Part shown: piece after piece, positions 1 through 27,001 of the stretch
Position numbering within the stretch: the first letter of the stretch is position 1
Layout of the letters: each line of letters begins with the position of its first letter
Source: a virus
Strand: one strand, 5' to 3'
Length of the DNA stretch: 44,165 bases
Virus genome (UHGV): UHGV-1352852
Program-made: the position numbers and the translations under genes
Notes under the pieces: generated by a model
Seen by the model: only the letters and a program-made list of their open reading frames with translations
What the model was told of the DNA's origin: nothing
Databases searched by the model: none

Positions 1-1186
1 TGGCAAACGGTGATTTTTCTATTTGCATCGCGCACACTAATATACCACTAACCCCGTCACCGACAAATGAACCAACGGCGGAGTTGTTGTACACCCATGA
101 CGCTAAAAGCAGAGAAGACGCGCCACCCTGGCGTATAGCTACCGTTTCTGTAAATCGATACCAACCATTACCAAGCTCTGCTATATCGCTGCCGGGGGCG
201 CCTGCGTAAATAACCCCTGTCGATAAGTTAGCAACACAATCCGCGATAAACCCAGCATCATCAGCGGCGCGAAGTCTCGCATAATTATAACCATAGGCCT
301 TAGCAACGTAACTGAGAGTGTATACATCACCCTCCGCAAAAGCGGAAGACACCGATTGATATACGAGATGGCTGTCGTTTGTCTGGTTCGGGACTAGCGA
401 GAACGTACCACCGTTTAGAAATCCGTCAACTGCATCCGACACTGTTGCTCTAGTTTTAGTCCACGATGCGTCAGATAATTTCGACGATTTAATCAGGATA
501 TTACTGGACGCGGATTCCGGCGGAACACGTCCAACAGCAACCCCATCAATAAACGTAAGAGGCCATTCATTAGCGGCGGACTGCACAAGATTGCCGTTGC
601 GGTTGATGTAATAAACCTGCGGCCCGTCATACACAATGCGGCTATCAAGAGTCGACGCCAGAAGGTTAATAGGTGGATACCCGGCAGGCCCTTCATTGCT
701 CCAGATGCGCGGGAACGTCGTCACATAGTTAGCGTATATTTTCAGGAAACTACCCAGACAATCCCCGTAACAGCCGTACAAATCTGGCAGATTGTTAATC
801 AGGCACTGGTTCTCAAGGTCCTGGAACGGCGATTTCTCAGCGGTTGCCGTGAAAGTAATTGTCCAGTTAATCCCGTCTTCGGTGGACTCAGCGATGGTTG
901 ACGTGATTGTTACCTGGTAATCCTCGATACCCATGCCGAAGTCATGTGCCATCCAGAAACTTGACGCACCGCCATCGACTTTCTCAAGGAACGACAGAAA
1001 CGCCTGCCGCCCCATTGCGGATGTAATCAGGGTTACGCTCACCGGAAACACGTCGTAATATGTGTCACGGCCCTGACGCACTCCGCCACCAGCTAAATCT
1101 ACACTCCAGACGTTGTTACGTCTGGTCATTGAGTAGCCTTTTGACACAATGGGCTTAAGGCTACGCGGGAAATATAAGTCGCTCAT
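1..1186 (-). CDS. minor tail protein, 5' portion; ORF runs off the window start and continues in frame at the window end
   Basis: ATG at ~1184-1186 overlaps the tape-measure stop; manual reverse translation is stop-free down to position 1 (about 395 codons). Sits directly downstream of the tape measure in the tail module. Confidence 0.5.
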   Translation of the reverse strand, partial: MSDLYFPRSLKPIVSKGYSMTRRNNVWSVDLAGGGVRQGRDTYYDVFPVSVTLITSAMGRQAFLSFLEKVDGGASSFWMAHDFGMGIEDYQVTITSTIAESTEDGINWTITFTATAEKSPFQDLENQCLINNLPDLYGCYGDCLGSFLKIYANYVTTFPRIWSNEGPAGYPPINLLASTLDSRIVYDGPQVYYINRNGNLVQSAANEWPLTFIDGVAVGRVPPESASSNILIKSSKLSDASWTKTRATVSDAVDGFLNGGTFSLVPNQTNDSHLVYQSVSSAFAEGDVYTLSYVAKAYGYNYARLRAADDAGFIADCVANLSTGVIYAGAPGSDIAELGNGWYRFTETVAIRQGGASSLLLASWVYNNSAVGSFVGDGVSGILVCAMQIEKSPFA

Positions 1187-3498
1187 TATTTGAACCCCGG
1201 CGCATTTCTTGTGGCCTTGCGGGCCTTGCTAATCTTACTGTTGCTGTTCTGCAAAGAGGCGGCCACCTGCTCCTCGATGATGATACGCAAACGGCCTTCA
1301 TCATCTTGTTCGGTGGATACGTTGCCAATTTGAGAACTCGTGTTATTTACGATAGTAACATTAGATGGGCCGGAAGAAGACCCGTTTTGCCCCATAATTT
1401 CTTTCATCTGCTGTGCCGTGCGCACACGCGATGCCCCAGCGGGCATGATAACTTCGGGTTTACCGCGTTCGGCGATGGTGGAAGCCTGTCCTGCGGATAA
1501 CTGACCGCCCTGCTCACGCGCGGACCTGATGGCGGAAATCTGCGCCATACCCGCCCCAACTGCAGCAGCAGCGGCTACGGGGGCCAGGAACGGGCCAACT
1601 ACAGGGATAGCAGCCGTTGACTTATACGCTTCAATAGCTGCGGTGTACGTGGCTATAGTGGCCTGTACGATAGCGAATGCCTTATACGCGCCAGAAGCCT
1701 CACCCAACGCAGACCCGATGTTTGAAGCCATGTTACCGAAGGCGGTTGCCGTTGCGTCGGCACGCTTCGTAGCATACTGCTCATTGATGGCGTTAAGCGC
1801 CGCCTGGTACTGCTTCTCACTAATAAGCCCCTGCTCACGGTACTTATCCGCTACCTCCAGTTTCTGCTGTTCCTGGATGTCGAGAAGCTCAAGCTCAGTA
1901 GCGTTCTGACCCATAATCTGTGCCATGAAGTCCTCGCCTTTCTGCTGCTTTTCCTGCTGCTCTTTTCTTTTCTTATCCAGTTCTTCCTGTCTGGCCTGCT
2001 CGGCTGTGAGCATAATTTGAGTTTTGGCGTTTTCATACTGCTGCTGGCTTATCGTTCCGGCGCGGTTGAACTCCTCCAGTTTCGCCAGTTTCTGTTCTTC
2101 CGCAGCGGTAATGCGCGAAATCTCATCTCCGGTTGTGCGGTCGACAGTAGCCAGGAAATCTTCCGCCGCTTTTTTCTGTCGTTCAGCCGCCGTTTCTTCG
2201 CGTTTGGCTTGTGCCGCCAGCCGTTTCTCGTTCGATTTGGCCTCGCGGTCGGCCTTCGCTTTTTCGGTAGCGTCGATGCGAGCGATGTCTTGTTGTGCTT
2301 CCGTGTCACGCGCAGCATTATACGCGGCGATCTGTTCTTTGGTGACAGCTTCACGTTTAGCGAACGCCTGCTTATCCAGTTCAGCTTGCGCACGGATACG
2401 CTCGCGGTCACTTAAGATAGCGATTTGCTGGTTTTTGACGATAGCTTCGTTCTGTTCCTGGAATCTCTGCGTTGTTGAGTTGACGTTACGACCAAGATTC
2501 TTTTGGGCCTCCGCCGCCGCGTTTGCGGACTTCTCCGCGTTCTCCAGTGCCGTGGCGTTCTTGTTGGCATTGTCGGTCAGGCGGATAAGTTCCGGGTTCA
2601 ACTGTTTTGTATTACCGAGCCAGTCGGTAAACACATCGGCGATGCGACGGGCATTCTCGGCGGTTGGCTCTTTGTTAAACGCACTCTGCGCCGCTATCAT
2701 CTCCAGCGCCTGGTCACGGTTAACCCCAAACTTACTGCTAAGCTCTGCGATATTCTGCGCCAGCATGTTGACGCCTACGATGTTACCCTCGTAAGTGCCA
2801 CCGAGTTTTTCTAACGTGTCGCCTACATCCGCACCTTTAGAGACCAATGCATCGTACTGGCTGATAGCTGATGCTGTGGATGCCTTCCATGTCTCCCATG
2901 ATTCTGCGTCCTCACGAACAGCTTTAGCTGTTTGCTGTGCGATAAGGTCCGCGTTAGCCTTAGCCAGCGCAAGCTGAGTCTCCGCCGCTTCTCTGCTGAT
3001 TTGGGTAAGCTGGATAAGGCCGTCTGTCAGTTCGAGAGAGCCGGACGCCGTTTGCTGGAAAGTATCTTTTAGCTGTTTCTGTGCGGCTTCGAGGTCTTTT
3101 GAACTGCCTTCTGCTTCGGTTAACGATTTATACAGGACACCACCGATTGCTGACGCAAGAGCAATTACGGCCCCAAGCACCGCGCCACCAGGGCCGAAAG
3201 CACCCGCAAGCTGAGAGCCTTGTTGCCCGATTGCTACGAATGCAGACGTGCCGGACTGCAACTGGACGACCATGTCCTGCACCTGGAAGCCTACCTGCCC
3301 GGCGGCGTTACGGAATTTAGCGAAACCGTCAGAAGCCGCTTTAGACGTAGCGGAGTTTACTTTATTAACATCCGGCGTTAGTTTGTTTACGGATGTGTCC
3401 GCACGGTCTGCGGATGCCGCCATAGCGTCAAGCTGTTTAGCGGCTACATCAGCGCCTTCTGTTTTTACTCTGGCAATTAGGGAAGCCGTATCAGCCAT
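1186..3498 (-). CDS. tail tape measure protein
   Basis: Track ORF 1186..3513; ATG at 3498 (MADTAS...) has a better RBS than the TTG at 3513. About 770 aa, Ala/Gln/Lys/Glu-rich coiled-coil centre, Gly-rich hydrophobic segment; lies between the chaperone pair and the tail-tip genes. Confidence 0.8.
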   Translation of the reverse strand: MADTASLIARVKTEGADVAAKQLDAMAASADRADTSVNKLTPDVNKVNSATSKAASDGFAKFRNAAGQVGFQVQDMVVQLQSGTSAFVAIGQQGSQLAGAFGPGGAVLGAVIALASAIGGVLYKSLTEAEGSSKDLEAAQKQLKDTFQQTASGSLELTDGLIQLTQISREAAETQLALAKANADLIAQQTAKAVREDAESWETWKASTASAISQYDALVSKGADVGDTLEKLGGTYEGNIVGVNMLAQNIAELSSKFGVNRDQALEMIAAQSAFNKEPTAENARRIADVFTDWLGNTKQLNPELIRLTDNANKNATALENAEKSANAAAEAQKNLGRNVNSTTQRFQEQNEAIVKNQQIAILSDRERIRAQAELDKQAFAKREAVTKEQIAAYNAARDTEAQQDIARIDATEKAKADREAKSNEKRLAAQAKREETAAERQKKAAEDFLATVDRTTGDEISRITAAEEQKLAKLEEFNRAGTISQQQYENAKTQIMLTAEQARQEELDKKRKEQQEKQQKGEDFMAQIMGQNATELELLDIQEQQKLEVADKYREQGLISEKQYQAALNAINEQYATKRADATATAFGNMASNIGSALGEASGAYKAFAIVQATIATYTAAIEAYKSTAAIPVVGPFLAPVAAAAAVGAGMAQISAIRSAREQGGQLSAGQASTIAERGKPEVIMPAGASRVRTAQQMKEIMGQNGSSSGPSNVTIVNNTSSQIGNVSTEQDDEGRLRIIIEEQVAASLQNSNSKISKARKATRNAPGFK

Positions 3499-3763
3499 CT
3501 TCTCTGCCCTCAAATATTCCGTCTAAGCCCATGATAACCTCGGCTTCGAACAAACTTATGCCGTAACCGGCGACATCACGAAACGCTACCAAATCTTGCC
3601 ATTTGAGCGCATCGCGCGGGATTATAACGATAGTATCATCTGTTTCGCGCTGTAGGAATTTAATGGCACGGTATTTCTCGAACACGTCGATAAGAGAAAC
3701 GGGGCATTCCGGCCCCGTCGCTTCTTTCATCTGCGGTTCTTTAATCACGCCCATTGCAATCAA
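3491..3763 (-). CDS. tail assembly chaperone, -1 frame ORF (T-like extension of the G/GT pair)
   Basis: Track ORF; its frame stays open upstream to ~3871 and overlaps the end of the 3853..4269 ORF in the -1 frame, the conserved siphovirus G/GT arrangement just upstream of the tape measure. Confidence 0.45.
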   Translation of the reverse strand: MIAMGVIKEPQMKEATGPECPVSLIDVFEKYRAIKFLQRETDDTIVIIPRDALKWQDLVAFRDVAGYGISLFEAEVIMGLDGIFEGREDG

Positions 3764-3852
3764 AGCCGCCTGGTGGCCCGCCGCGATGTCGTCGAATTGC
3801 TTACGTTTGTGGCGGTCGACAAAGCACCATTGCGCAAATTCATACAGCGCTT

Positions 3853-4269
3853 TTACTTTTCCGAGAGTTTCTCACGGCTATCGGTGTGATGCTTAACTAC
3901 GGCCTCTGCCAACCCACTGTACTGGTCGAACAGGTTAGCAAGCGCCTCTTTGCTGAATGGTTCGTCGAATGACCAACCGGTGACGATTTCCACGGCAAGC
4001 TGCTTGTTCAGGTCCATCACCCGCCAGCCCTTCTCATCATTATAGCGCGCCCAGTTATTCAGCGCCTCGCACTCTTTATCTAATGGCGCAAGTTCTTCCG
4101 TAAGGCGTCGAATTGCCGTTGTGTAGGCACGGCCCGCACGAACACCAGCGTCACAATCGGGGCCGATGACCTGCAACCATTCACCGGAATCTTTACCACT
4201 GGGCAGAAGGATAGGCATTTTAGTACCGGCGGCGTGGCGGTCCGCAAAATAAAAATCAGAAAGTTTCAT
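3853..4269 (-). CDS. tail assembly chaperone (G-like)
   Basis: 138-aa ORF between the major tail and tape measure genes; a GGAAAAG run lies at its 3' end inside the -1 frame overlap. Confidence 0.5.
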   Translation of the reverse strand: MKLSDFYFADRHAAGTKMPILLPSGKDSGEWLQVIGPDCDAGVRAGRAYTTAIRRLTEELAPLDKECEALNNWARYNDEKGWRVMDLNKQLAVEIVTGWSFDEPFSKEALANLFDQYSGLAEAVVKHHTDSREKLSEK

Positions 4270-4376
4270 TCTTTAATCCTTTGGTTAAGAGGTTACTGGT
4301 TGATGGTGTTGCGCCAGACGGGAACCACCCGCTTTTCGTGTGCGACACTAGGCGCAAACTTATTCTAACACACTAC

Positions 4377-4405
4377 TTGCACACCCCAATATAATAGGGT
4401 ACTAT
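4377..4405 (+). promoter_or_regulatory. sigma70-like promoter TTGCAC-N17-TACTAT with embedded AATAG-N4-CTATT palindrome
   Basis: Member of a repeated promoter family (see findings); located ~30 nt upstream of the 4434 start codon. Confidence 0.5.
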
Positions 4406-4433
4406 TCACCTGTAACCTACTGAGGAAATAATT

Positions 4434-4760
4434 ATGCGTAAATTAGTATTAGCTCTGGGGTTTATGTCTTTTGCCGCTTTTGGGTCTCCGTGCGAACAGG
4501 TATTTAGTGAATCTGTTCTTATGACTTCTGGTGTTCTCGATAAAGCCGACCCTACTATTGTAAAGGCATTTAAGGACTCTACCGTTCGCGAGTGTGAGGC
4601 CGCTGTAGAGGTTGGTAAATCGGGCCTACCCCCGCAGGCCGTAACCTACACAGTGATACGTTCGGTAGAGAAAAACGGAGATGCTTTCTATAGCCTACTG
4701 ACAGCCACCCGTCTGCAAATGGTAATGACAGGGTGGGCGATAGGCGCAGAAAGTAAATAG
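4434..4760 (+). CDS. small secreted protein (Sec signal peptide), moron
   Basis: N-terminus MRKLVLALGFMSFAAFG is a typical signal peptide; GAGGA RBS; plus-strand gene inserted within the minus-strand tail module. Confidence 0.6.
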   Translation: MRKLVLALGFMSFAAFGSPCEQVFSESVLMTSGVLDKADPTIVKAFKDSTVRECEAAVEVGKSGLPPQAVTYTVIRSVEKNGDAFYSLLTATRLQMVMTGWAIGAESK

Positions 4761-4825
4761 TCGCCTTTATTTAAAGGAATGCACTGTGGTTAAATAGGAC
4801 AAATCCTAAACACGAGGAAGTAAGC

Positions 4826-5956
4826 ATGGCCCAGAAGAAAATAACCGACGAACAGTTACAGGAAGAATTGAACGCCGGGATGAAGATTATTGATATCGCC
4901 CGTAAATACGGCATCTCAGACCGCGTTATTCGTATCCGTAAAGCGAAGCTGGCTAAGAAAGGTGTAGGCCACGGGCGCGACGTTAGTCACCTTGTGCCGG
5001 ACGGCTACAAGATTAAAGGCACGTCGTCCCTGGTGGACGAGTTCGGCAACACTAAGTTGCAATGGGTTAAGACTGACACCGATGCTGAACGTCAGGTCGA
5101 GTTGATGAAAGCCGTAATTGAAGGCATGAAGTCAGAGATTACACCTGTTGCGCCTGTTAAAGCGACTCGCGCCAAACGCGACGATAAACTTCTCAATCTT
5201 TACACTGTGTCTGATTTCCATCTCGGTATGCTTGCATGGGCAGACGAGAGCGGCGACGACTGGGACATGAAGATTGCAGAAGACCTGTTCTCTCGATGGT
5301 TCGACGCGGCGTTTCAGAAAGCACCGGACGCGGGAACAGGAGTTATTAATCTGCTAGGAGACTTCGCGCACTTCGATAGTCTTGATGCCGTTACCCCTGA
5401 GTCGCGTCATGTGTTAGACGCCGATACTCGCTATCAGAAACTAGTTCGCTACATGATTCGTATGGTGCGTCGTGTTGTCGATATGGCGCTTGTTAAACAT
5501 CACACAGTCAAACTCTTAATAGTTCAAGGTAACCACGACCCTGTAGGCTCTGTATGGCTCGCCGAAATGTTCACGGTTTTATACTCAAACGACAGCCGAG
5601 TGATTGTCGATACGTCACCAGACGTTTACAAGATGGTGCAACACGGCAAAACGACGTTGTTCTTTCACCACGGGCATAAATCGCGCTTCGATGCTATCGA
5701 ACCGGTTATGATTGCCAAGTTCCGCAAAGCGTTCGGCGAGAGTGTTTACAGCTACGCCCACGTAGGCCATCTGCACCACCAGAAGATTGTAGAAAGCCGT
5801 AACATGGTTGTTGAGCAACACCGCACCTTAGCGGCTAAAGACGCCTACGCCTCCCGCGGCGGATGGATGTCGGGCCGCAGTGCTAATGTAATTACTTATA
5901 GCGCCGAATATGGTGAGGTCGCACGTTTAACTATTTCACCGGAGATGCTGGGATGA
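4826..5956 (+). CDS. HTH domain fused to a calcineurin-like metallophosphoesterase
   Basis: N-terminal HTH (IIDIARKYGISDRVIRIRKAKL); ordered metallophosphoesterase motifs DFH, GDFAHFD, GNHD, FHHGH, GHLHH; GAGGAAG RBS. Confidence 0.75.
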   Translation: MAQKKITDEQLQEELNAGMKIIDIARKYGISDRVIRIRKAKLAKKGVGHGRDVSHLVPDGYKIKGTSSLVDEFGNTKLQWVKTDTDAERQVELMKAVIEGMKSEITPVAPVKATRAKRDDKLLNLYTVSDFHLGMLAWADESGDDWDMKIAEDLFSRWFDAAFQKAPDAGTGVINLLGDFAHFDSLDAVTPESRHVLDADTRYQKLVRYMIRMVRRVVDMALVKHHTVKLLIVQGNHDPVGSVWLAEMFTVLYSNDSRVIVDTSPDVYKMVQHGKTTLFFHHGHKSRFDAIEPVMIAKFRKAFGESVYSYAHVGHLHHQKIVESRNMVVEQHRTLAAKDAYASRGGWMSGRSANVITYSAEYGEVARLTISPEMLG

Positions 5957-6183
5957 CTTCAAAATACAACCGAACAATGACAAACATTCACGGCAGCACT
6001 ATGACAGTAGACGTTTATGATGTTCTCCGTGCTTTCGATATCCGTGACCCGGCGCTACAGCACGCATTGAAGAAGCTGTTGTGTATGGGCCTGCGCGGTC
6101 ACAAGGATACCGGAACAGACTTAGCGGAAGCAATTGAAAGTCTGGAGAAGTTACGGGAATACCGAAGCAATATTGATGAGTAA
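5953..6183 (+). CDS. small helical phage protein (possibly DUF3310-like, from recollection)
   Basis: 76-aa ORF whose start overlaps the preceding stop (ATGA); segment VDVYDVLRAFDIRDPALQHALKKLLCMGLRG resembles small lambdoid-phage proteins. Confidence 0.45.
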   Translation: MTSKYNRTMTNIHGSTMTVDVYDVLRAFDIRDPALQHALKKLLCMGLRGHKDTGTDLAEAIESLEKLREYRSNIDE

Positions 6184-6210
6184 GAAAAGGCCCCTTTCGG
6201 GGCCTTAGTT
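6184..6210. terminator. bidirectional rho-independent terminator
   Basis: GC hairpin AGGCCCCTTTCGGGGCCT with A-run on one side and T-rich tract on the other; separates the plus-strand cassette from the convergent major tail gene. Confidence 0.6.
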
Positions 6211-7377
6211 TTATGCGTAGGTGATACGCTGAATAACAATAGACGACTGGTACTGGTTGCCAGTAGCCTGGCCTTCAATAGACTGAGTGATTGACTCAGG
6301 TCCGCCAATCTCAGGTGTAACCGCTGTCAGTTCCGCACGTTTTAAACTGAAAGACATAGCCCCGTTTACCCCCGCCAGAATAGAGTTAATCTCTACCTGC
6401 TGTTCGTTGATAAACTTCTGAATCATAGCCATGTCGTACAGCTTACCAGAGATAGAGAAGGTGTTAGCCGCGCGGCTACGCTCCACAAACGCCACGTTAG
6501 TGTTGCCGAGTTCGAACTGAGCGGACGCGCTGTTGTCGTTGGTGATGGCCAGGCTGTCGCAGCGCAACGGTGTTGAGCCATCGAACACAGAAACGTCAAC
6601 CGAAGAGAACGGCTCGTCACCAAACGTGACAGAGGAGAAATCAGAACCTGTCGGCTGCGTGGCGAGAATCTCCTGACTGCGACCGATGAACGGGAAGCTG
6701 CCAGTTACCATCGCGTTAACGGCCTGCTCAATAGTGAAGCCAGAAACTTCCACGCCTTTGGTCAGCGTGTACGCGTCGGCCCCACCACACTGGCCTTTGT
6801 ACCAGGTGAGAATAGAGAACGTCTTACACTGGCTACCGGTTTCCAGCTTATCGCCAGTTTTAGCCGCAGTAGTGGCGGTCTCAGTGGTCAGAGTATGTTG
6901 GGTACCAGCACCGGTGACAACTGTCGCACTTACCTCGGTTACGATAAACGGTTTGGCGTTATCGCCAGTTAAATCGGTGAACGCGATTAAGTCCCCCACT
7001 TCAACGCCGTCAGAAATAAAGCTACCTTCTGCACGGGTGAATGTCTTTCCCGCCGGTGCGACGGTAATAGACAGCCCGGACAGAGAAACGCCGGATTGCC
7101 ACGTAGAGCCTAAAGCCCCGGCTAACCAGTCGTCCTGGCTTTTCGAGCTAAGCTCAATAGCGTATTCTCCGCTAACCTGCTTGTTGCCGGTGCGGATGGA
7201 TGTAGTTTCACGGCTGCCGTCAAGTTCATTGGAGGTCAGCGTGTCGCGGGTAATGGCCGGAACACCGCCCGTATTGCGCAACGGCGACCATACCGGGTTA
7301 TCCGGTGTTACGCCCGGGGTCACTTCCGCCACATAGAATTGCGCGGTATTCGCGCCCTTAAAAGGAGTTGTAGCCAT
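6211..7377 (-). CDS. major tail protein (tube)
   Basis: Track ORF 6211..7383; ATG at 7377 preceded by AAGAGG. Thr/Ser/Gly-rich 388-aa protein positioned before the chaperone pair. Confidence 0.5.
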   Translation of the reverse strand: MATTPFKGANTAQFYVAEVTPGVTPDNPVWSPLRNTGGVPAITRDTLTSNELDGSRETTSIRTGNKQVSGEYAIELSSKSQDDWLAGALGSTWQSGVSLSGLSITVAPAGKTFTRAEGSFISDGVEVGDLIAFTDLTGDNAKPFIVTEVSATVVTGAGTQHTLTTETATTAAKTGDKLETGSQCKTFSILTWYKGQCGGADAYTLTKGVEVSGFTIEQAVNAMVTGSFPFIGRSQEILATQPTGSDFSSVTFGDEPFSSVDVSVFDGSTPLRCDSLAITNDNSASAQFELGNTNVAFVERSRAANTFSISGKLYDMAMIQKFINEQQVEINSILAGVNGAMSFSLKRAELTAVTPEIGGPESITQSIEGQATGNQYQSSIVIQRITYA

Positions 7378-7379
7378 AT

Positions 7380-7796
7380 TCACAGCCTCTTGGTGAATGC
7401 AATAAAGTTAATTGACAATGGCCGTTTGGCCCATCCGTTTTCTACAATCAGCGGCCCCAGGCTAACCGATTGAACCTCGGCGCAGATGTCGTTACGTGAA
7501 AATGACTTACCTGCTTTAAACGCCGTGTTAAGTAAGTCTGCCATTTTATTGATTGGCGCGCTACCTTTCACCGATGCGTAGTTAATGTCGACCTGATAGA
7601 TACCAGAGCGTTGTTCCGTGAAGAACAAATCCGCCTGCTCGGTATCCGCGAGTAGCATGTAACTCGCCAGATACGGGGTATCGGTTGACGTCGGCGCGTC
7701 GATGTTTTCAAGTGCAACCTTGATGCCGTTGGCGGTTCCGAAGGCTACCAGCGGCACATCGAACGCTTTTGTTAAGTCCTCAAAGTAGCCCATCAT
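7380..7796 (-). CDS. tail completion / head-tail joining protein
   Basis: 138-aa ORF in a run of translationally coupled small genes between capsid and major tail genes. Confidence 0.4.
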   Translation of the reverse strand: MMGYFEDLTKAFDVPLVAFGTANGIKVALENIDAPTSTDTPYLASYMLLADTEQADLFFTEQRSGIYQVDINYASVKGSAPINKMADLLNTAFKAGKSFSRNDICAEVQSVSLGPLIVENGWAKRPLSINFIAFTKRL

Positions 7797-16184: not shown

Positions 16185-16228
16185 ATGCCCTCCTGTAGTA
16201 TCGCCAGTGTAACGCATAAAAATAATAT

Positions 16229-16257
16229 TTGCAGACACCAATATAATAGGGTACTAT
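16229..16257 (+). promoter_or_regulatory. sigma70-like promoter TTGCAG-N17-TACTAT with embedded palindrome
   Basis: Third near-identical copy; leader shares TATCGAAACGAGA with the copy at 26613. Confidence 0.5.
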
Positions 16258-16291: not shown

Positions 16292-16504
16292 ATGAAAGAA
16301 TTAATTATCGCGGTATTGACGACACTGGCAGTTTCACTGGTAATTGCTGCTGGTGTACGTAGCTTAGATAAACACGGGTGTGAGAACTACGGAGATGTCA
16401 CAGGCAGAGAGGTAATGTATAGTTACACAACTTGTTATGTGAAAACTGATAGAGGTTTTATCCCTCGTGAAGAACTTAATTTCAGAGCAGCGACACATGA
16501 ATAA
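16292..16504 (+). CDS. small membrane-anchored protein, moron
   Basis: 70 aa; N-terminal TM segment LIIAVLTTLAVSLVIAAGV then a short Cys-containing domain; AAGGGA RBS; terminator downstream. Confidence 0.5.
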   Translation: MKELIIAVLTTLAVSLVIAAGVRSLDKHGCENYGDVTGREVMYSYTTCYVKTDRGFIPREELNFRAATHE

Positions 16505-16505
16505 A

Positions 16506-16532
16506 ACTAAGGCCCCGAAAGGGGCCTTTTTC
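16506..16532. terminator. bidirectional rho-independent terminator
   Basis: Hairpin AGGCCCCGAAAGGGGCCT flanked by an A-run and TTTTT; lies between the convergent 16292 gene and the portal gene. Confidence 0.55.
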
Positions 16533-26612: not shown

Positions 26613-26641
26613 ATAGTATCCTATTATGTTGGGGTGCGCAA
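26613..26641 (-). promoter_or_regulatory. sigma70-like promoter TTGCGC-N17-TACTAT (minus strand) with palindrome
   Basis: Minus-strand reading GCGCACCCCAACATAATAGGATACTATTCAC is near-identical to the plus-strand copies at 4377, 13181 and 16229. Confidence 0.5.
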
Positions 26642-27001
26642 GAGAATAGTTACGTTGCCGTTGTGATTCTTCGGGGAAGGTTGTGCCTTTATTCTTATTA
26701 CTTGGTAACTAAAGGGCAGGCCTTAAGGCCTGCCCAATAATCGTTACATTTTTACGGTTGCGAATCTACGGCATAGGAAGAAACAGTAGATATTTCAGCT
26801 GGTTACTTCTTTAAATGAGATTTAGATACACTTATCCTTAAACCCCAAGGCAAGCATCTCAGCTGTCTGGGAGGGGTTGACGAATCCCTCGGGGAGGGTT
26901 CGTCAACTCCGTAATACATACAAGTCCCAAAACCATTATACAAACATGAGTCAAGAACTTTCAATAACTTTTTTGTAAAGATTAAATATTGCAGGGATTG
27001 G

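What the first reader, a model, noticed from the sequence alone, without database searches (positions are those of the whole stretch)
4377..6210. Three-gene plus-strand cassette inside the tail module: secreted protein, HTH-metallophosphoesterase, small helical protein
Between the major tail and chaperone genes, on the opposite strand, sits a self-contained unit: family promoter, a 108-aa protein with a Sec signal peptide, a 376-aa protein with an N-terminal HTH and all ordered calcineurin-like metallophosphoesterase motifs (DFH, GDFAHFD, GNHD, FHHGH, GHLHH), a 76-aa helical protein, then a terminator. The motif set resembles class III cyclic-nucleotide phosphodiesterases and Mre11/SbcD-type nucleases. 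Small secreted proteins encoded among tail genes are known as receptor-masking superinfection-exclusion factors (Cor, Llp). The cassette is a candidate host-interaction or counter-defence module: signalling-nucleotide degradation or DNA-end processing, plus entry exclusion.
Basis: partly seen in the sequence, partly recalled or inferred. Interest (0 to 1): 0.7.

Follow-up and report, generated by a model that had tools for sequence, protein, structure and literature searches.

The report
Mosaic early-gene island inside phage tail operon
The three genes are real, but they are independently swappable accessory genes found in the tail operon of many known Kagunavirus/Jerseyvirus phages: a secreted protein that may block superinfection, a DNA-binding metallophosphoesterase that looks most like a nuclease, and a small protein of unknown function.

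Summary
ORF1 (4434-4760), ORF2 (4826-5956) and ORF3 (5953-6183) lie antisense between the tail assembly chaperone and tail tube genes. A promoter motif found three times in the genome precedes them, and a bidirectional terminator follows.

The window is a Kagunavirus-like genome, about 93% identical over this stretch to published BASEL phages that annotate the same genes.

The cassette is not one system. Across 25 related loci ORF2 is fixed. The upstream slot holds ORF1 or a T4 Imm-family protein. The downstream slot holds ORF3 or a HAD phosphatase plus a dNMP kinase. All four combinations occur.

The upstream gene travels with the chaperone/tape-measure allele, even between genera. This fits an injection-blocking exclusion factor, but ORF1 is not a Cor/Llp lipoprotein and has no fold match.

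ORF2 most likely acts on DNA. Counter-defence activity was not tested. This is a known, annotated, uncharacterised cassette of moderate interest.

The parts
4376..4405 (+). Promoter-like motif cTTGCACACCCCAATATAATAGGGTACTAT. It reads as TTGCAC (-35), a 17-nt spacer and TACTAT (-10). The spacer is partly palindromic, so it may also be an operator.
   Evidence: Three copies in the window, against 0 expected by chance. The aligned copies share about 35 nt. The copy at 26616-26642 (-) heads the leftward block of small genes at the divergent control region, so early timing is inferred. The generic sigma-70 scan did not list this site because it matches only 7 of 12 consensus positions.
4434..4760 (+). 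ORF1, 108 aa. Predicted Sec signal peptide at residues 1-17 (nt 4434-4484). The mature protein is about 91 aa, acidic (pI about 5) and all-alpha, with two invariant cysteines (C20, C54). It is a candidate periplasmic superinfection-exclusion factor.
4826..5956 (+). ORF2, 376 aa, an HTH-metallophosphoesterase. Layout: a tri-helical HTH at residues 8-44 (nt 4847-4957); a flexible linker; a conserved beta-hairpin plus helix at residues 61-104 (nt 5006-5137) with invariant W80; and the metallophosphoesterase domain at residues 119-376 (nt 5180-5953).
5953..6183 (+). ORF3, 76 aa, a small conserved domain with the pattern KYxR...VDVYDVL..PAxQHAxKKLLxxGxRGHK...DLxEA. Its start overlaps the ORF2 stop (ATGA). 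Function unknown.
   Evidence: It matches the C-terminal ~70 residues of longer PHROG families (phrog_2452, E 2.5e-36). Found in 782 phage records and 35 protein clusters. Alignment. No Pfam or PDB hit, even with a profile. One GenBank record labels the homologue DUF3310. It is unrelated to the dNMP kinases that replace it.
6187..6206 (.). Bidirectional intrinsic terminator AAGGCCCCTTTCGGGGCCTT. It ends the cassette transcript on the plus strand and the tail tube transcript on the minus strand.
   Evidence: Listed as terminator-like on both strands. RNA fold -19.6 kcal/mol, z = -3.47.
4294..4358 (-). Structured RNA resembling Rfam int-alpA. It sits on the late (minus) strand, back to back with the cassette promoter, and would form the 5' leader of the chaperone/tape-measure genes.
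   Evidence: 34.1 bits against a gathering score of 35.8; E 1.2e-5 in 251 nt and 0.002 over the whole window. Conserved in every Guernseyvirinae locus examined, with compensatory changes.
3853..4269 (-). Tail assembly chaperone gene (flank). Its allele co-varies with the gene in the ORF1 slot.
   Evidence: Phage_TAC_4, E 1e-8. Allele linkage.
6211..7383 (-). Tail tube gene (flank). Its sequence follows genus phylogeny.
   Evidence: Phage_tube_2, E 7e-39. Identity matrix.

Best explanation
This is an accessory ('moron'-type) island transcribed antisense within the tail operon of a Kagunavirus-like siphovirus. Transcription probably starts early, from a promoter of the same type as one of the genome's early promoters, and ends at a bidirectional terminator. 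The island is a mosaic of three independent functions.

1. ORF2 is the fixed core. It is an active two-metal phosphoesterase tethered to a DNA-binding HTH. It most likely hydrolyses phosphodiester bonds in DNA. Candidate roles are host-chromosome degradation or DNA-end/intermediate processing that supports phage replication and nucleotide supply. This would make it work like T5 A1+A2 or the cluster-A mycobacteriophage metallophosphoesterase, without belonging to either family.
2. ORF1 is exported to the periplasm. It most likely blocks DNA injection by phages that share its tape-measure type, which would be superinfection exclusion.
3. ORF3 is a small protein of unknown role, translationally coupled to ORF2. 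In sibling phages it is replaced by a HAD phosphatase plus a dNMP kinase.

What is shown: the gene structure, the motifs, the fold, the mosaicism and the allele linkage. What is inferred: the substrate, the timing and the exclusion role.
For: Enzyme identity:
- The catalytic residues are invariant.
- The model is confident and has the metallophosphoesterase fold.

Lean towards DNA as substrate:
- The N-terminal HTH is kept across the family. Members hit Sigma70_r4, LysR, Fis, GerE and other HTH models.
- From my own knowledge, motif II (GDFxH) matches the Mre11 form GDLFH. This was not tested here.

Genomic context:
- In Drexlerviridae the gene lies at the end of the helicase / VRR-NUC / methylase block.
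- In Webervirus, in some Kagunavirus genomes and in several metagenomic contigs it is followed by a HAD_PNKP-type phosphatase, usually with a P-loop dNMP kinase.
- In contigs L044 and L047 a gene that I read from its motifs as a MazG/MazZ-like pyrophosphohydrolase follows the phosphatase. That reading was not confirmed by a family search.

Precedents from papers:
- T5 A1, a predicted metallophosphatase, is necessary and sufficient for host DNA degradation and works with the DNA-binding protein A2 (bioRxiv 10.64898/2026.04.02.716235).
- The metallophosphoesterase gp48 of mycobacteriophage A10ZJ24 disrupts host DNA and acts as counter-defence (PMC12287305).

Mosaic structure:
- All four slot combinations occur: ORF1+ORF3 in 4 loci, ORF1+HAD/kinase in 4, Imm+ORF3 in 8, Imm+HAD/kinase in 6.

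ORF1 as an exclusion factor:
- The same slot holds Pfam Imm_superinfect in 14-15 loci (E 1e-12 to 2e-15).
- The slot type matches the chaperone/tape-measure allele in 22 of 22 loci.
- The Imm-linked chaperone allele is 91-93% identical between Kagunavirus and Jerseyvirus, while the tube protein is only 68-73% identical.
- This linkage holds despite a roughly 100-nt near-identical intergenic stretch between chaperone and slot, which should favour recombination there.

Timing:
- The promoter motif is shared with an early-region promoter.
Against: - No biochemical or genetic data exist for this family in anything I could search.
- A bacterial calcineurin-like enzyme paired with a HAD enzyme acts on dNDPs rather than DNA (bioRxiv 10.64898/2026.01.15.699771). 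The HAD/kinase neighbours therefore fit a nucleotide substrate equally well.
- The phage already encodes a PD-(D/E)XK exonuclease and a polymerase with its own 3'-5' exonuclease domain.
- Homology to T5 A1 and to Bxb1 gp47 is not detectable beyond the shared motifs (hhalign probability 15% and 11%).
- Guernseyvirinae are sensitive to Ec2ApeA, a defence activated by deoxydinucleotides that its authors propose come from host DNA breakdown. Dhillonvirus carries a 73%-identical ORF2 homologue yet is resistant.
- ORF1 has no fold or sequence relative among known exclusion proteins.
- ORF1's linkage to the chaperone/tape-measure allele could simply reflect physical adjacency, and the loci are not phylogenetically independent.
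- One Kagunavirus transcriptome classed the Imm-slot gene as late, although its time course is unusual.
Confidence: 0.45

Rival explanations
1. ORF2 acts on small nucleotides rather than on DNA. One version is a phosphodiesterase that destroys immune signalling nucleotides from CBASS, Pycsar, Thoeris or type III CRISPR, making it a counter-defence enzyme. The other is an enzyme that reshapes (d)NDP/(d)NTP or NAD pools together with the HAD phosphatase and dNMP kinase found beside it in sibling phages.
For: - The gene sits in a variable accessory island next to exclusion-type genes.
- Its neighbours in siblings are nucleotide enzymes.
- There is a precedent for a calcineurin-like enzyme plus a HAD enzyme acting on dNTP/dNDP and NAD.
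Against: - A DNA-binding HTH conserved across the whole family has no obvious role for a small-molecule enzyme.
- The top structural neighbours are nucleases.
- The gene is a fixed, genus-level core gene, present in about 4% of phage records at conserved positions. Typical anti-defence genes are patchier.
- From my own knowledge, the known phage enzymes against signalling nucleotides (Acb1, Apyc1) use other folds.
- T1 carries the HAD phosphatase and kinase pair without ORF2, so that pair does not need it.
Confidence: 0.2
2. ORF2 heals broken RNA or DNA ends as a 2',3'-cyclic phosphodiesterase / 3'-phosphatase. It would cooperate with a polynucleotide-kinase-type phosphatase and kinase to repair tRNAs or DNA cut by host nucleases, in the manner of T4 Pnk or bacterial Pnkp.
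For: - In EM1, Shelby and many Kagunavirus loci ORF2 is followed directly by a HAD_PNKP phosphatase domain (E 1e-20) and a P-loop kinase.
- From my own knowledge, bacterial Pnkp uses a metallophosphoesterase domain for 3'-end healing.
Against: - This window has neither the HAD phosphatase nor the kinase. Its 93%-identical relative Bas71 has no annotated ligase, polynucleotide kinase or phosphatase.
- ORF2 and the HAD/kinase pair assort independently.
- The kinase matches the dNMP-kinase family phrog_139. The HAD domain shares its motif I with the dNMP phosphatase T5 Dmp.
Confidence: 0.08
3. ORF2 is mainly a regulator. The HTH binds phage or host promoters, for example the shared 35-nt promoter/operator motif. 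The phosphoesterase domain would sense or remove a ligand, or act as a protein phosphatase as lambda NinI does.
For: - The HTH resembles sigma region 4, LuxR, LysR and Fis regulator domains.
- The promoter motif has a partly palindromic spacer and occurs three times.
- In several metagenomic phage contigs ORF2 lies just upstream of a gene that I read, from its sequence and by memory of the family, as a Q-like late regulator, followed by terminase genes. By my recollection this is the position NinI holds in lambda. Neither the Q-like identity nor the lambda layout was checked here.
Against: - Catalytic residues are invariant across more than 4,500 clusters, which points to catalysis as the selected function.
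- The PPP signatures GDxVDRG and GNHE are absent. ORF2 has GDFAHFD and GNHD instead.
Confidence: 0.1
4. ORF1 is not an exclusion factor. It would be some other periplasmic effector, for example one that modulates envelope stress, lysis timing or receptor/O-antigen biology. Its linkage to the chaperone/tape-measure allele would then be mere adjacency.
For: - ORF1 has no homology or fold match to any known exclusion protein.
- Adjacent genes are expected to co-inherit.
- Kagunaviruses depend on O-antigen or capsule glycans (PMC11990801), so a periplasmic protein might act on glycan pathways.
Against: - The slot alternates with a bona fide Imm_superinfect family protein.
- Linkage is perfect in 22 of 22 loci and crosses genus boundaries, despite a conserved recombination-prone spacer.
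Confidence: 0.3

Closest known systems
Mre11 / SbcD and PolD DP1 nuclease branch of the calcineurin-like metallophosphoesterases
   Different: Sequence identity is only 12-18%. ORF2 has no C-terminal capping domain and the genome has no Rad50/SbcC-like ATPase. ORF2 has its own N-terminal HTH, a beta-hairpin module, and a family-specific loop VTPxSxHxLDxDxR after motif II. No Pfam model reaches its cut-off.
Phage T5 A1 (metallophosphatase, host DNA degradation) with A2 (DNA-binding protein)
   Same: Both pair a phage metallophosphoesterase with a DNA-binding HTH function. Here the two are fused into one chain. In T5 and in sibling Kagunaviruses a HAD-type phosphatase lies nearby.
   Different: There is no detectable homology (hhalign probability 15%, motif III only). 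A1 is 556 aa and is described as a hallmark of Demerecviridae. No role in DNA transfer is expected here. This is a functional analogy only.
Cluster A mycobacteriophage metallophosphoesterase (A10ZJ24 gp48; Bxb1 gp47)
   Same: Both are metallophosphoesterases encoded among phage early/replication genes. They share the HGH form of motif IV and align across motifs III-V. gp48 is experimentally a phosphodiesterase that damages host DNA.
   Different: The mycobacteriophage protein is about 255 aa and has no HTH or beta-hairpin module. hhalign probability is only 11%. The host phylum is different.
T4 Imm (Pfam Imm_superinfect), and Cor/Llp, as comparators for ORF1
   Same: ORF1 occupies exactly the slot that holds an Imm_superinfect protein in sibling phages. 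Like the comparators it is small, envelope-targeted, and encoded within the tail gene region.
Class III cyclic-nucleotide phosphodiesterases (CpdA / Rv0805)

Membership tests
Calcineurin-like metallophosphoesterase superfamily | Five ordered metal-binding motifs: DxH, GD, GNH[DE], H, GHxH | tested here: met
   D130/H132, G178/D179, N236/H237/D238, H282 and G314/H315/H317 are present. They are invariant or over 90% conserved in 50 diverse relatives.
Calcineurin-like metallophosphoesterase superfamily | Beta-sandwich metallophosphoesterase fold | tested here: met
Calcineurin-like metallophosphoesterase superfamily | Pfam Metallophos or Metallophos_2 score above the gathering threshold | tested here: not met
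   21.8 bits against a cut-off of 27, and 17.0 against 21.5. Only 10-12 of 50 relatives match either model at E up to 0.01. This is a divergent family with no dedicated Pfam model.
Mre11 / SbcD nucleases | C-terminal capping domain after the phosphoesterase domain | tested here: not met
   The phosphoesterase domain runs to the last residues (strands to 370, helix 372-375 of 376). The extra modules are N-terminal.
Mre11 / SbcD nucleases | A partner Rad50/SbcC-type coiled-coil ATPase encoded alongside | tested here: not met
   No such gene appears in the window's ORF list or in the annotation of the 93%-identical phage Bas71. The large proteins are the tape measure, primase-helicase, polymerase, helicase and tail proteins.
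Mre11 / SbcD nucleases | Mn2+-dependent exo/endonuclease activity on DNA | not testable with these tools
Class III cNMP phosphodiesterases (CpdA/Rv0805) | Closest sequence or structure relationship to CpdA/Rv0805, and cNMP hydrolysis | tested here: inconclusive
T5 A1 host-DNA-degrading metallophosphatase | Detectable homology to A1 | tested here: not met
   hhalign probability is 15%, with 29 aligned columns around GNHD only.
Cluster A mycobacteriophage metallophosphoesterase (Bxb1 gp47 / A10ZJ24 gp48) | Detectable homology beyond the superfamily motifs | tested here: inconclusive
   hhalign E is 0.0027 and probability 11%, with 86 columns spanning motifs III-V. The template was a single sequence, which limits sensitivity.
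Cor / Llp exclusion lipoproteins (ORF1) | Lipoprotein signal peptide with a lipobox ([LVI][ASTVI][GAS]C) | tested here: not met
   The sequence around the first cysteine is A-F-G-S-P-C (H-P-C in Jerseyvirus). The cysteine lies three residues after an AxG/SxA signal-peptidase-I-type site.
T4 Imm family (Pfam PF14373) (ORF1) | Match to the Imm_superinfect profile, or a membrane-spanning segment | tested here: not met
   No Pfam hit at E up to 0.1. The only hydrophobic segment is the signal peptide. The slot equivalents in siblings do match (47.9 and 56.7 bits against a cut-off of 27.9).
T4 Spackle-like periplasmic exclusion proteins (ORF1) | Structural similarity to Spackle | tested here: not met
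DUF3310 (ORF3) | Match to the Pfam DUF3310 profile | tested here: not met
   No hit for any of 21 family members at E up to 5. The label comes only from one GenBank record. The resemblance in sequence pattern is from my memory.
Rfam int-alpA RNA (flanking element, 4294-4358, minus strand) | Covariance-model score at or above the gathering threshold | tested here: inconclusive
   34.1 bits against 35.8, with the full model length matched. The element is conserved in relatives and shows compensatory changes.

The most novel reading that the evidence does not exclude
ORF2 would represent a large, uncharacterised class of phage enzymes: a single-chain, HTH-guided metallophosphoesterase DNase. It would carry out host-chromosome destruction or counter-defence in small siphoviruses such as Guernseyvirinae, Dhillonvirus and many Drexlerviridae, and in about 4% of sequenced phages overall. 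It would be a fused functional analogue of T5 A1+A2. Separately, ORF1 would be a new family of periplasmic exclusion proteins matched to the tape-measure type.
Probability: 0.25. Interest if true: 0.6.

Novelty: new member of a known kind. Interest (0 to 1): 0.35.

Why it matters
The ORF2 family is very common. It occurs in 2,041 of 50,697 phage records and forms more than 4,500 clusters at 50% identity. It has no solved structure, no Pfam model that reaches threshold, and no experimental data. Databases name it inconsistently as 'DNA repair exonuclease', 'phosphatase', 'phosphodiesterase' and 'DNA polymerase II small subunit'.

Establishing its substrate would correct thousands of annotations. 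It could also reveal how small siphoviruses take over or strip the host chromosome.

The strict linkage between the upstream slot (ORF1 or Imm) and the chaperone/tape-measure allele gives a concrete hypothesis about superinfection exclusion. It can be tested cheaply with the publicly available BASEL Kagunavirus isolates (Bas70-76).

For this particular window nothing is unusual. It is a standard member of a published phage genus.

Tried and rejected
- The first protein database search timed out and was repeated. It returned only relatives of 93% identity or more. The exhaustive representative search supplied the diversity.
- Sequence searches of ORF2 and ORF3 against the PDB found nothing significant, either with single sequences or with profiles.
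- NCBIfam and PADLOC gave no meaningful hits for any of the three proteins.
- I tested whether ORF3 is a leftover C-terminus of the dNMP kinase that replaces it in siblings. BLASTP found no similarity, so I rejected this.
- ORF3 as DUF3310 was not confirmed by Pfam. ORF3 against Bxb1 gp49 showed no relationship.
- ORF2 as a homologue of T5 A1 was rejected. Its relationship to Bxb1 gp47 stays at superfamily level.
- I asked whether ORF2 supplies proofreading to a polymerase lacking an exonuclease, prompted by the DP1 hit. The phage family A polymerase has its own 3'-5' exonuclease domain, so I rejected this.
- ORF1 as a Spackle-like fold was rejected.
- A three-gene co-adapted system was rejected because of free assortment. 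An obligate link between ORF2 and the HAD/kinase pair was rejected because T1 has the pair without ORF2.
- The search for related loci failed with the 50-sequence alignment because it had no sufficiently conserved stretch. It worked with 10 sequences.
- Literature searches found no study of this cassette: Kagunavirus + metallophosphoesterase, Drexlerviridae + phosphoesterase, the BASEL paper and the phage Tn-seq preprint.
- A Kagunavirus transcriptome paper mentions only the Imm-slot gene, which it calls late.
- GC content is only slightly lower in the cassette than in its flanks (0.46-0.51 against 0.53-0.56). This is not strong evidence of foreign origin.
Full report
**What the window is.** The 1.95 kb around the finding is 93% identical at the nucleotide level to the published E. 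coli phages Bas71 and Bas73 and to KMB35, and 92.5-92.8% identical to SZH-1 and Bas70/72/75/76. It matches 442 phage records, mostly Salmonella and Escherichia phages of the Jerseyvirus and Kagunavirus genera. The window is therefore essentially a complete Kagunavirus-like (Guernseyvirinae) siphovirus genome. The annotated map of Bas71 shows the same gene order.

**Checking the observation.**
- ORF1, 4434-4760, 108 aa.
- ORF2, 4826-5956, 376 aa.
- ORF3, 5953-6183, 76 aa. Its ATG overlaps the ORF2 stop.

The flanking minus-strand genes are a tail assembly chaperone (Phage_TAC_4) and the tail tube protein (Phage_tube_2). The hairpin at 6187-6206 is terminator-like on both strands.

The 'family promoter' is real. 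The 27-nt sequence at 4376-4402 recurs at 16228-16254 (+) and 26616-26642 (-), with none expected by chance. The three copies share about 35 nt, including TTGCAC-N17-TACTAT. One copy heads the leftward block of small genes at the divergent control region. The cassette is on the same strand as the replication genes. From these two facts I infer early expression. This is an inference, and it is not helped by one unusual transcriptome study that called the neighbouring slot gene 'late'.

**ORF2.**
- *Family matches.* PHROG 704 ('DNA repair exonuclease') matches end to end (E 1.6e-161). The Pfam Metallophos models match only below threshold. Nothing in the PDB matches by sequence.
- *Size and conservation of the family.* An exhaustive search found 4,557 clusters at 50% identity, most about 380-400 aa long. 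tblastn found homologues in 2,041 phage records, including Dhillonvirus, many Drexlerviridae, Webervirus, and Vibrio, Rhodobacter and other phages. In 50 relatives that are 32-50% identical to ORF2, every canonical metal ligand is invariant. So is W80, in an N-terminal module.
- *Structure.* The AlphaFold model is confident (pLDDT 92.4). It shows a three-helix HTH (residues 8-44), a flexible linker, a beta-hairpin plus helix (61-104), and the phosphoesterase domain (119-376). Family members hit many HTH Pfam models, and the profile weakly matches GerE/LuxR-type HTHs.

The enzyme identity is therefore solid. The substrate is only a lean towards DNA. It rests on the nuclease neighbours and on the family-wide DNA-binding domain. 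ORF2 is not an Mre11/SbcD family member, because it has no capping domain and the genome has no Rad50-like partner.

**The cassette is a mosaic.** I fetched 80 related loci and analysed them together with the loci already fetched from the phage collection and the window (84 with an ORF2 homologue in all). I called ORFs and searched them with seed proteins. Within Guernseyvirinae, ORF2 always sits between the chaperone and tube genes, but its neighbours vary.
- *Upstream slot.* It holds ORF1 in 8 loci. In 14-15 loci it holds a 59-72 aa protein that matches Pfam Imm_superinfect above threshold.
- *Downstream slot.* It holds ORF3, sometimes with an HNH endonuclease or an anti-repressor. Alternatively it holds a HAD_PNKP-type phosphatase plus a P-loop dNMP kinase.
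- *Combinations.* All four occur, in 4, 4, 8 and 6 loci. The three genes therefore do not form a co-adapted system.

Outside this subfamily ORF2 lies at the end of the early DNA-metabolism block. It comes after helicase / VRR-NUC / methylase and before the lysis genes in Drexlerviridae. In metagenomic contigs it comes before a gene I read as a Q-like regulator, followed by terminase genes. That reading was from the sequence only, not from a family search. Phage T1 itself has the HAD phosphatase and kinase pair but no ORF2.

**ORF1.** It has a typical Sec signal peptide, two invariant cysteines and no other hydrophobic segment. It is restricted to Guernseyvirinae. It has no lipobox, so it is not Cor/Llp-like. 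Its model is all-helical (pLDDT 77) and finds no meaningful structural relative.

Two observations support an exclusion role indirectly.
- Its slot is otherwise filled by an Imm-family protein.
- The slot type matches the chaperone/tape-measure allele in 22 of 22 loci.

The Imm-linked chaperone allele is 91-93% identical between Kagunavirus and Jerseyvirus. The adjacent tube and ORF2 proteins, by contrast, follow genus phylogeny. Gene 1 therefore belongs, in evolutionary terms, to the tape-measure/chaperone block and not to ORF2. This holds even though a roughly 100-nt near-identical spacer lies between them. From my own knowledge, several exclusion proteins (HK97 gp15, TP-J34 Ltp) act through the tape measure protein. 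The linkage fits an injection-blocking factor matched to the tape-measure type. It remains an inference, and simple adjacency is the rival explanation.

**ORF3.** It is a small, widespread domain (782 phage records) with a distinctive conserved pattern. In some phages it forms part of longer proteins. No Pfam or PDB relative was detectable. One GenBank record calls it DUF3310. Its function is unknown.

**Mechanism and rivals.** My best reading (confidence about 0.45) is that ORF2 is an HTH-guided DNA phosphodiesterase, used for host-DNA degradation or DNA-end processing.

The functional precedents are T5 A1/A2 and the mycobacteriophage gp48 metallophosphoesterase. Homology to both is undetectable or marginal.

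The main rival (about 0.2) is a nucleotide-directed enzyme, which would include a role against signalling nucleotides. It is supported by the Rv0805-class similarity, the nucleotide-enzyme neighbours, and the precedent of the bacterial PUA-Cal-HAD system. End-healing, regulatory and protein-phosphatase roles are less likely.

Two published observations cut both ways. Guernseyvirinae are sensitive to a defence triggered by deoxydinucleotides that its authors propose come from host DNA breakdown. Yet Dhillonvirus, which has a 73%-identical ORF2 homologue, is resistant.

**Verdict.** The cassette is a known, annotated but uncharacterised feature of a published phage genus. ORF2 belongs to a very large uncharacterised enzyme family that deserves biochemical study. 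Interest is moderate.

Noticed in passing
window 4294-4358 (minus strand): A structured RNA resembling Rfam int-alpA lies directly upstream of the tail assembly chaperone gene, back to back with the cassette promoter. It scores 34.1 bits against a gathering score of 35.8 and matches the full model. It is conserved in every Guernseyvirinae locus examined, with compensatory changes: the hairpin is GUG/CAC in one group and CGG/CCG in the other, and P1 is GCGCC/GGCGC, GCGUC/GGCGC or GCGUC/GACGC. A conserved extended -10-like TGTTAGAAT / TGTTATTCT lies about 8 nt upstream. This suggests that the downstream half of the tail operon has its own promoter and a structured leader.
   Followed up: partly
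window 16228-16254 (+), 16292-16504 (+): A second antisense island lies in the head module. The same promoter motif precedes a 70-aa ORF that has an N-terminal transmembrane or signal-anchor segment and two cysteines. It sits between the head-morphogenesis and portal genes and is followed by a hairpin near 16491-16531. Pfam gives no hit.
   Followed up: partly
window 26616-26642 (minus strand): The third copy of the promoter motif heads the leftward block of small genes at the divergent control region. The spacer CCCAATATAATAGGG is partly palindromic and could be an operator shared by the three promoters.
   Followed up: no
window 1186-4269 (minus strand); loci L002-L063: Tail assembly chaperone and tape-measure alleles are exchanged between Kagunavirus and Jerseyvirus as a block, together with the upstream slot gene. 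The Imm-linked chaperone is 91-93% identical across genera while the tube protein is 68-73%. Imm-type phages align with this window's tape measure over only about 330 of 775 residues.
   Followed up: yes
loci L006, L011; phages 590B, NTEC3, AV104: In some relatives an HNH homing endonuclease gene is inserted between ORF2 and ORF3. Jerseyviruses can also carry an anti-repressor gene after ORF3.
   Followed up: no
loci L044, L047: In metagenomic relatives ORF2 is followed by a HAD phosphatase and then by a protein whose motifs (KYDxGKxR...FGAxKY) look to me like a dATP/dGTP pyrophosphohydrolase (MazZ-like). This would be another nucleotide-metabolism neighbour. I recognised it from the motifs only and did not run a family search.
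   Followed up: no
window 4234-4368 (+): A short ORF upstream of the promoter motif is annotated as a 30-aa hypothetical protein in Bas71. It overlaps the complement of the int-alpA-like RNA and is probably not a gene.
   Followed up: no
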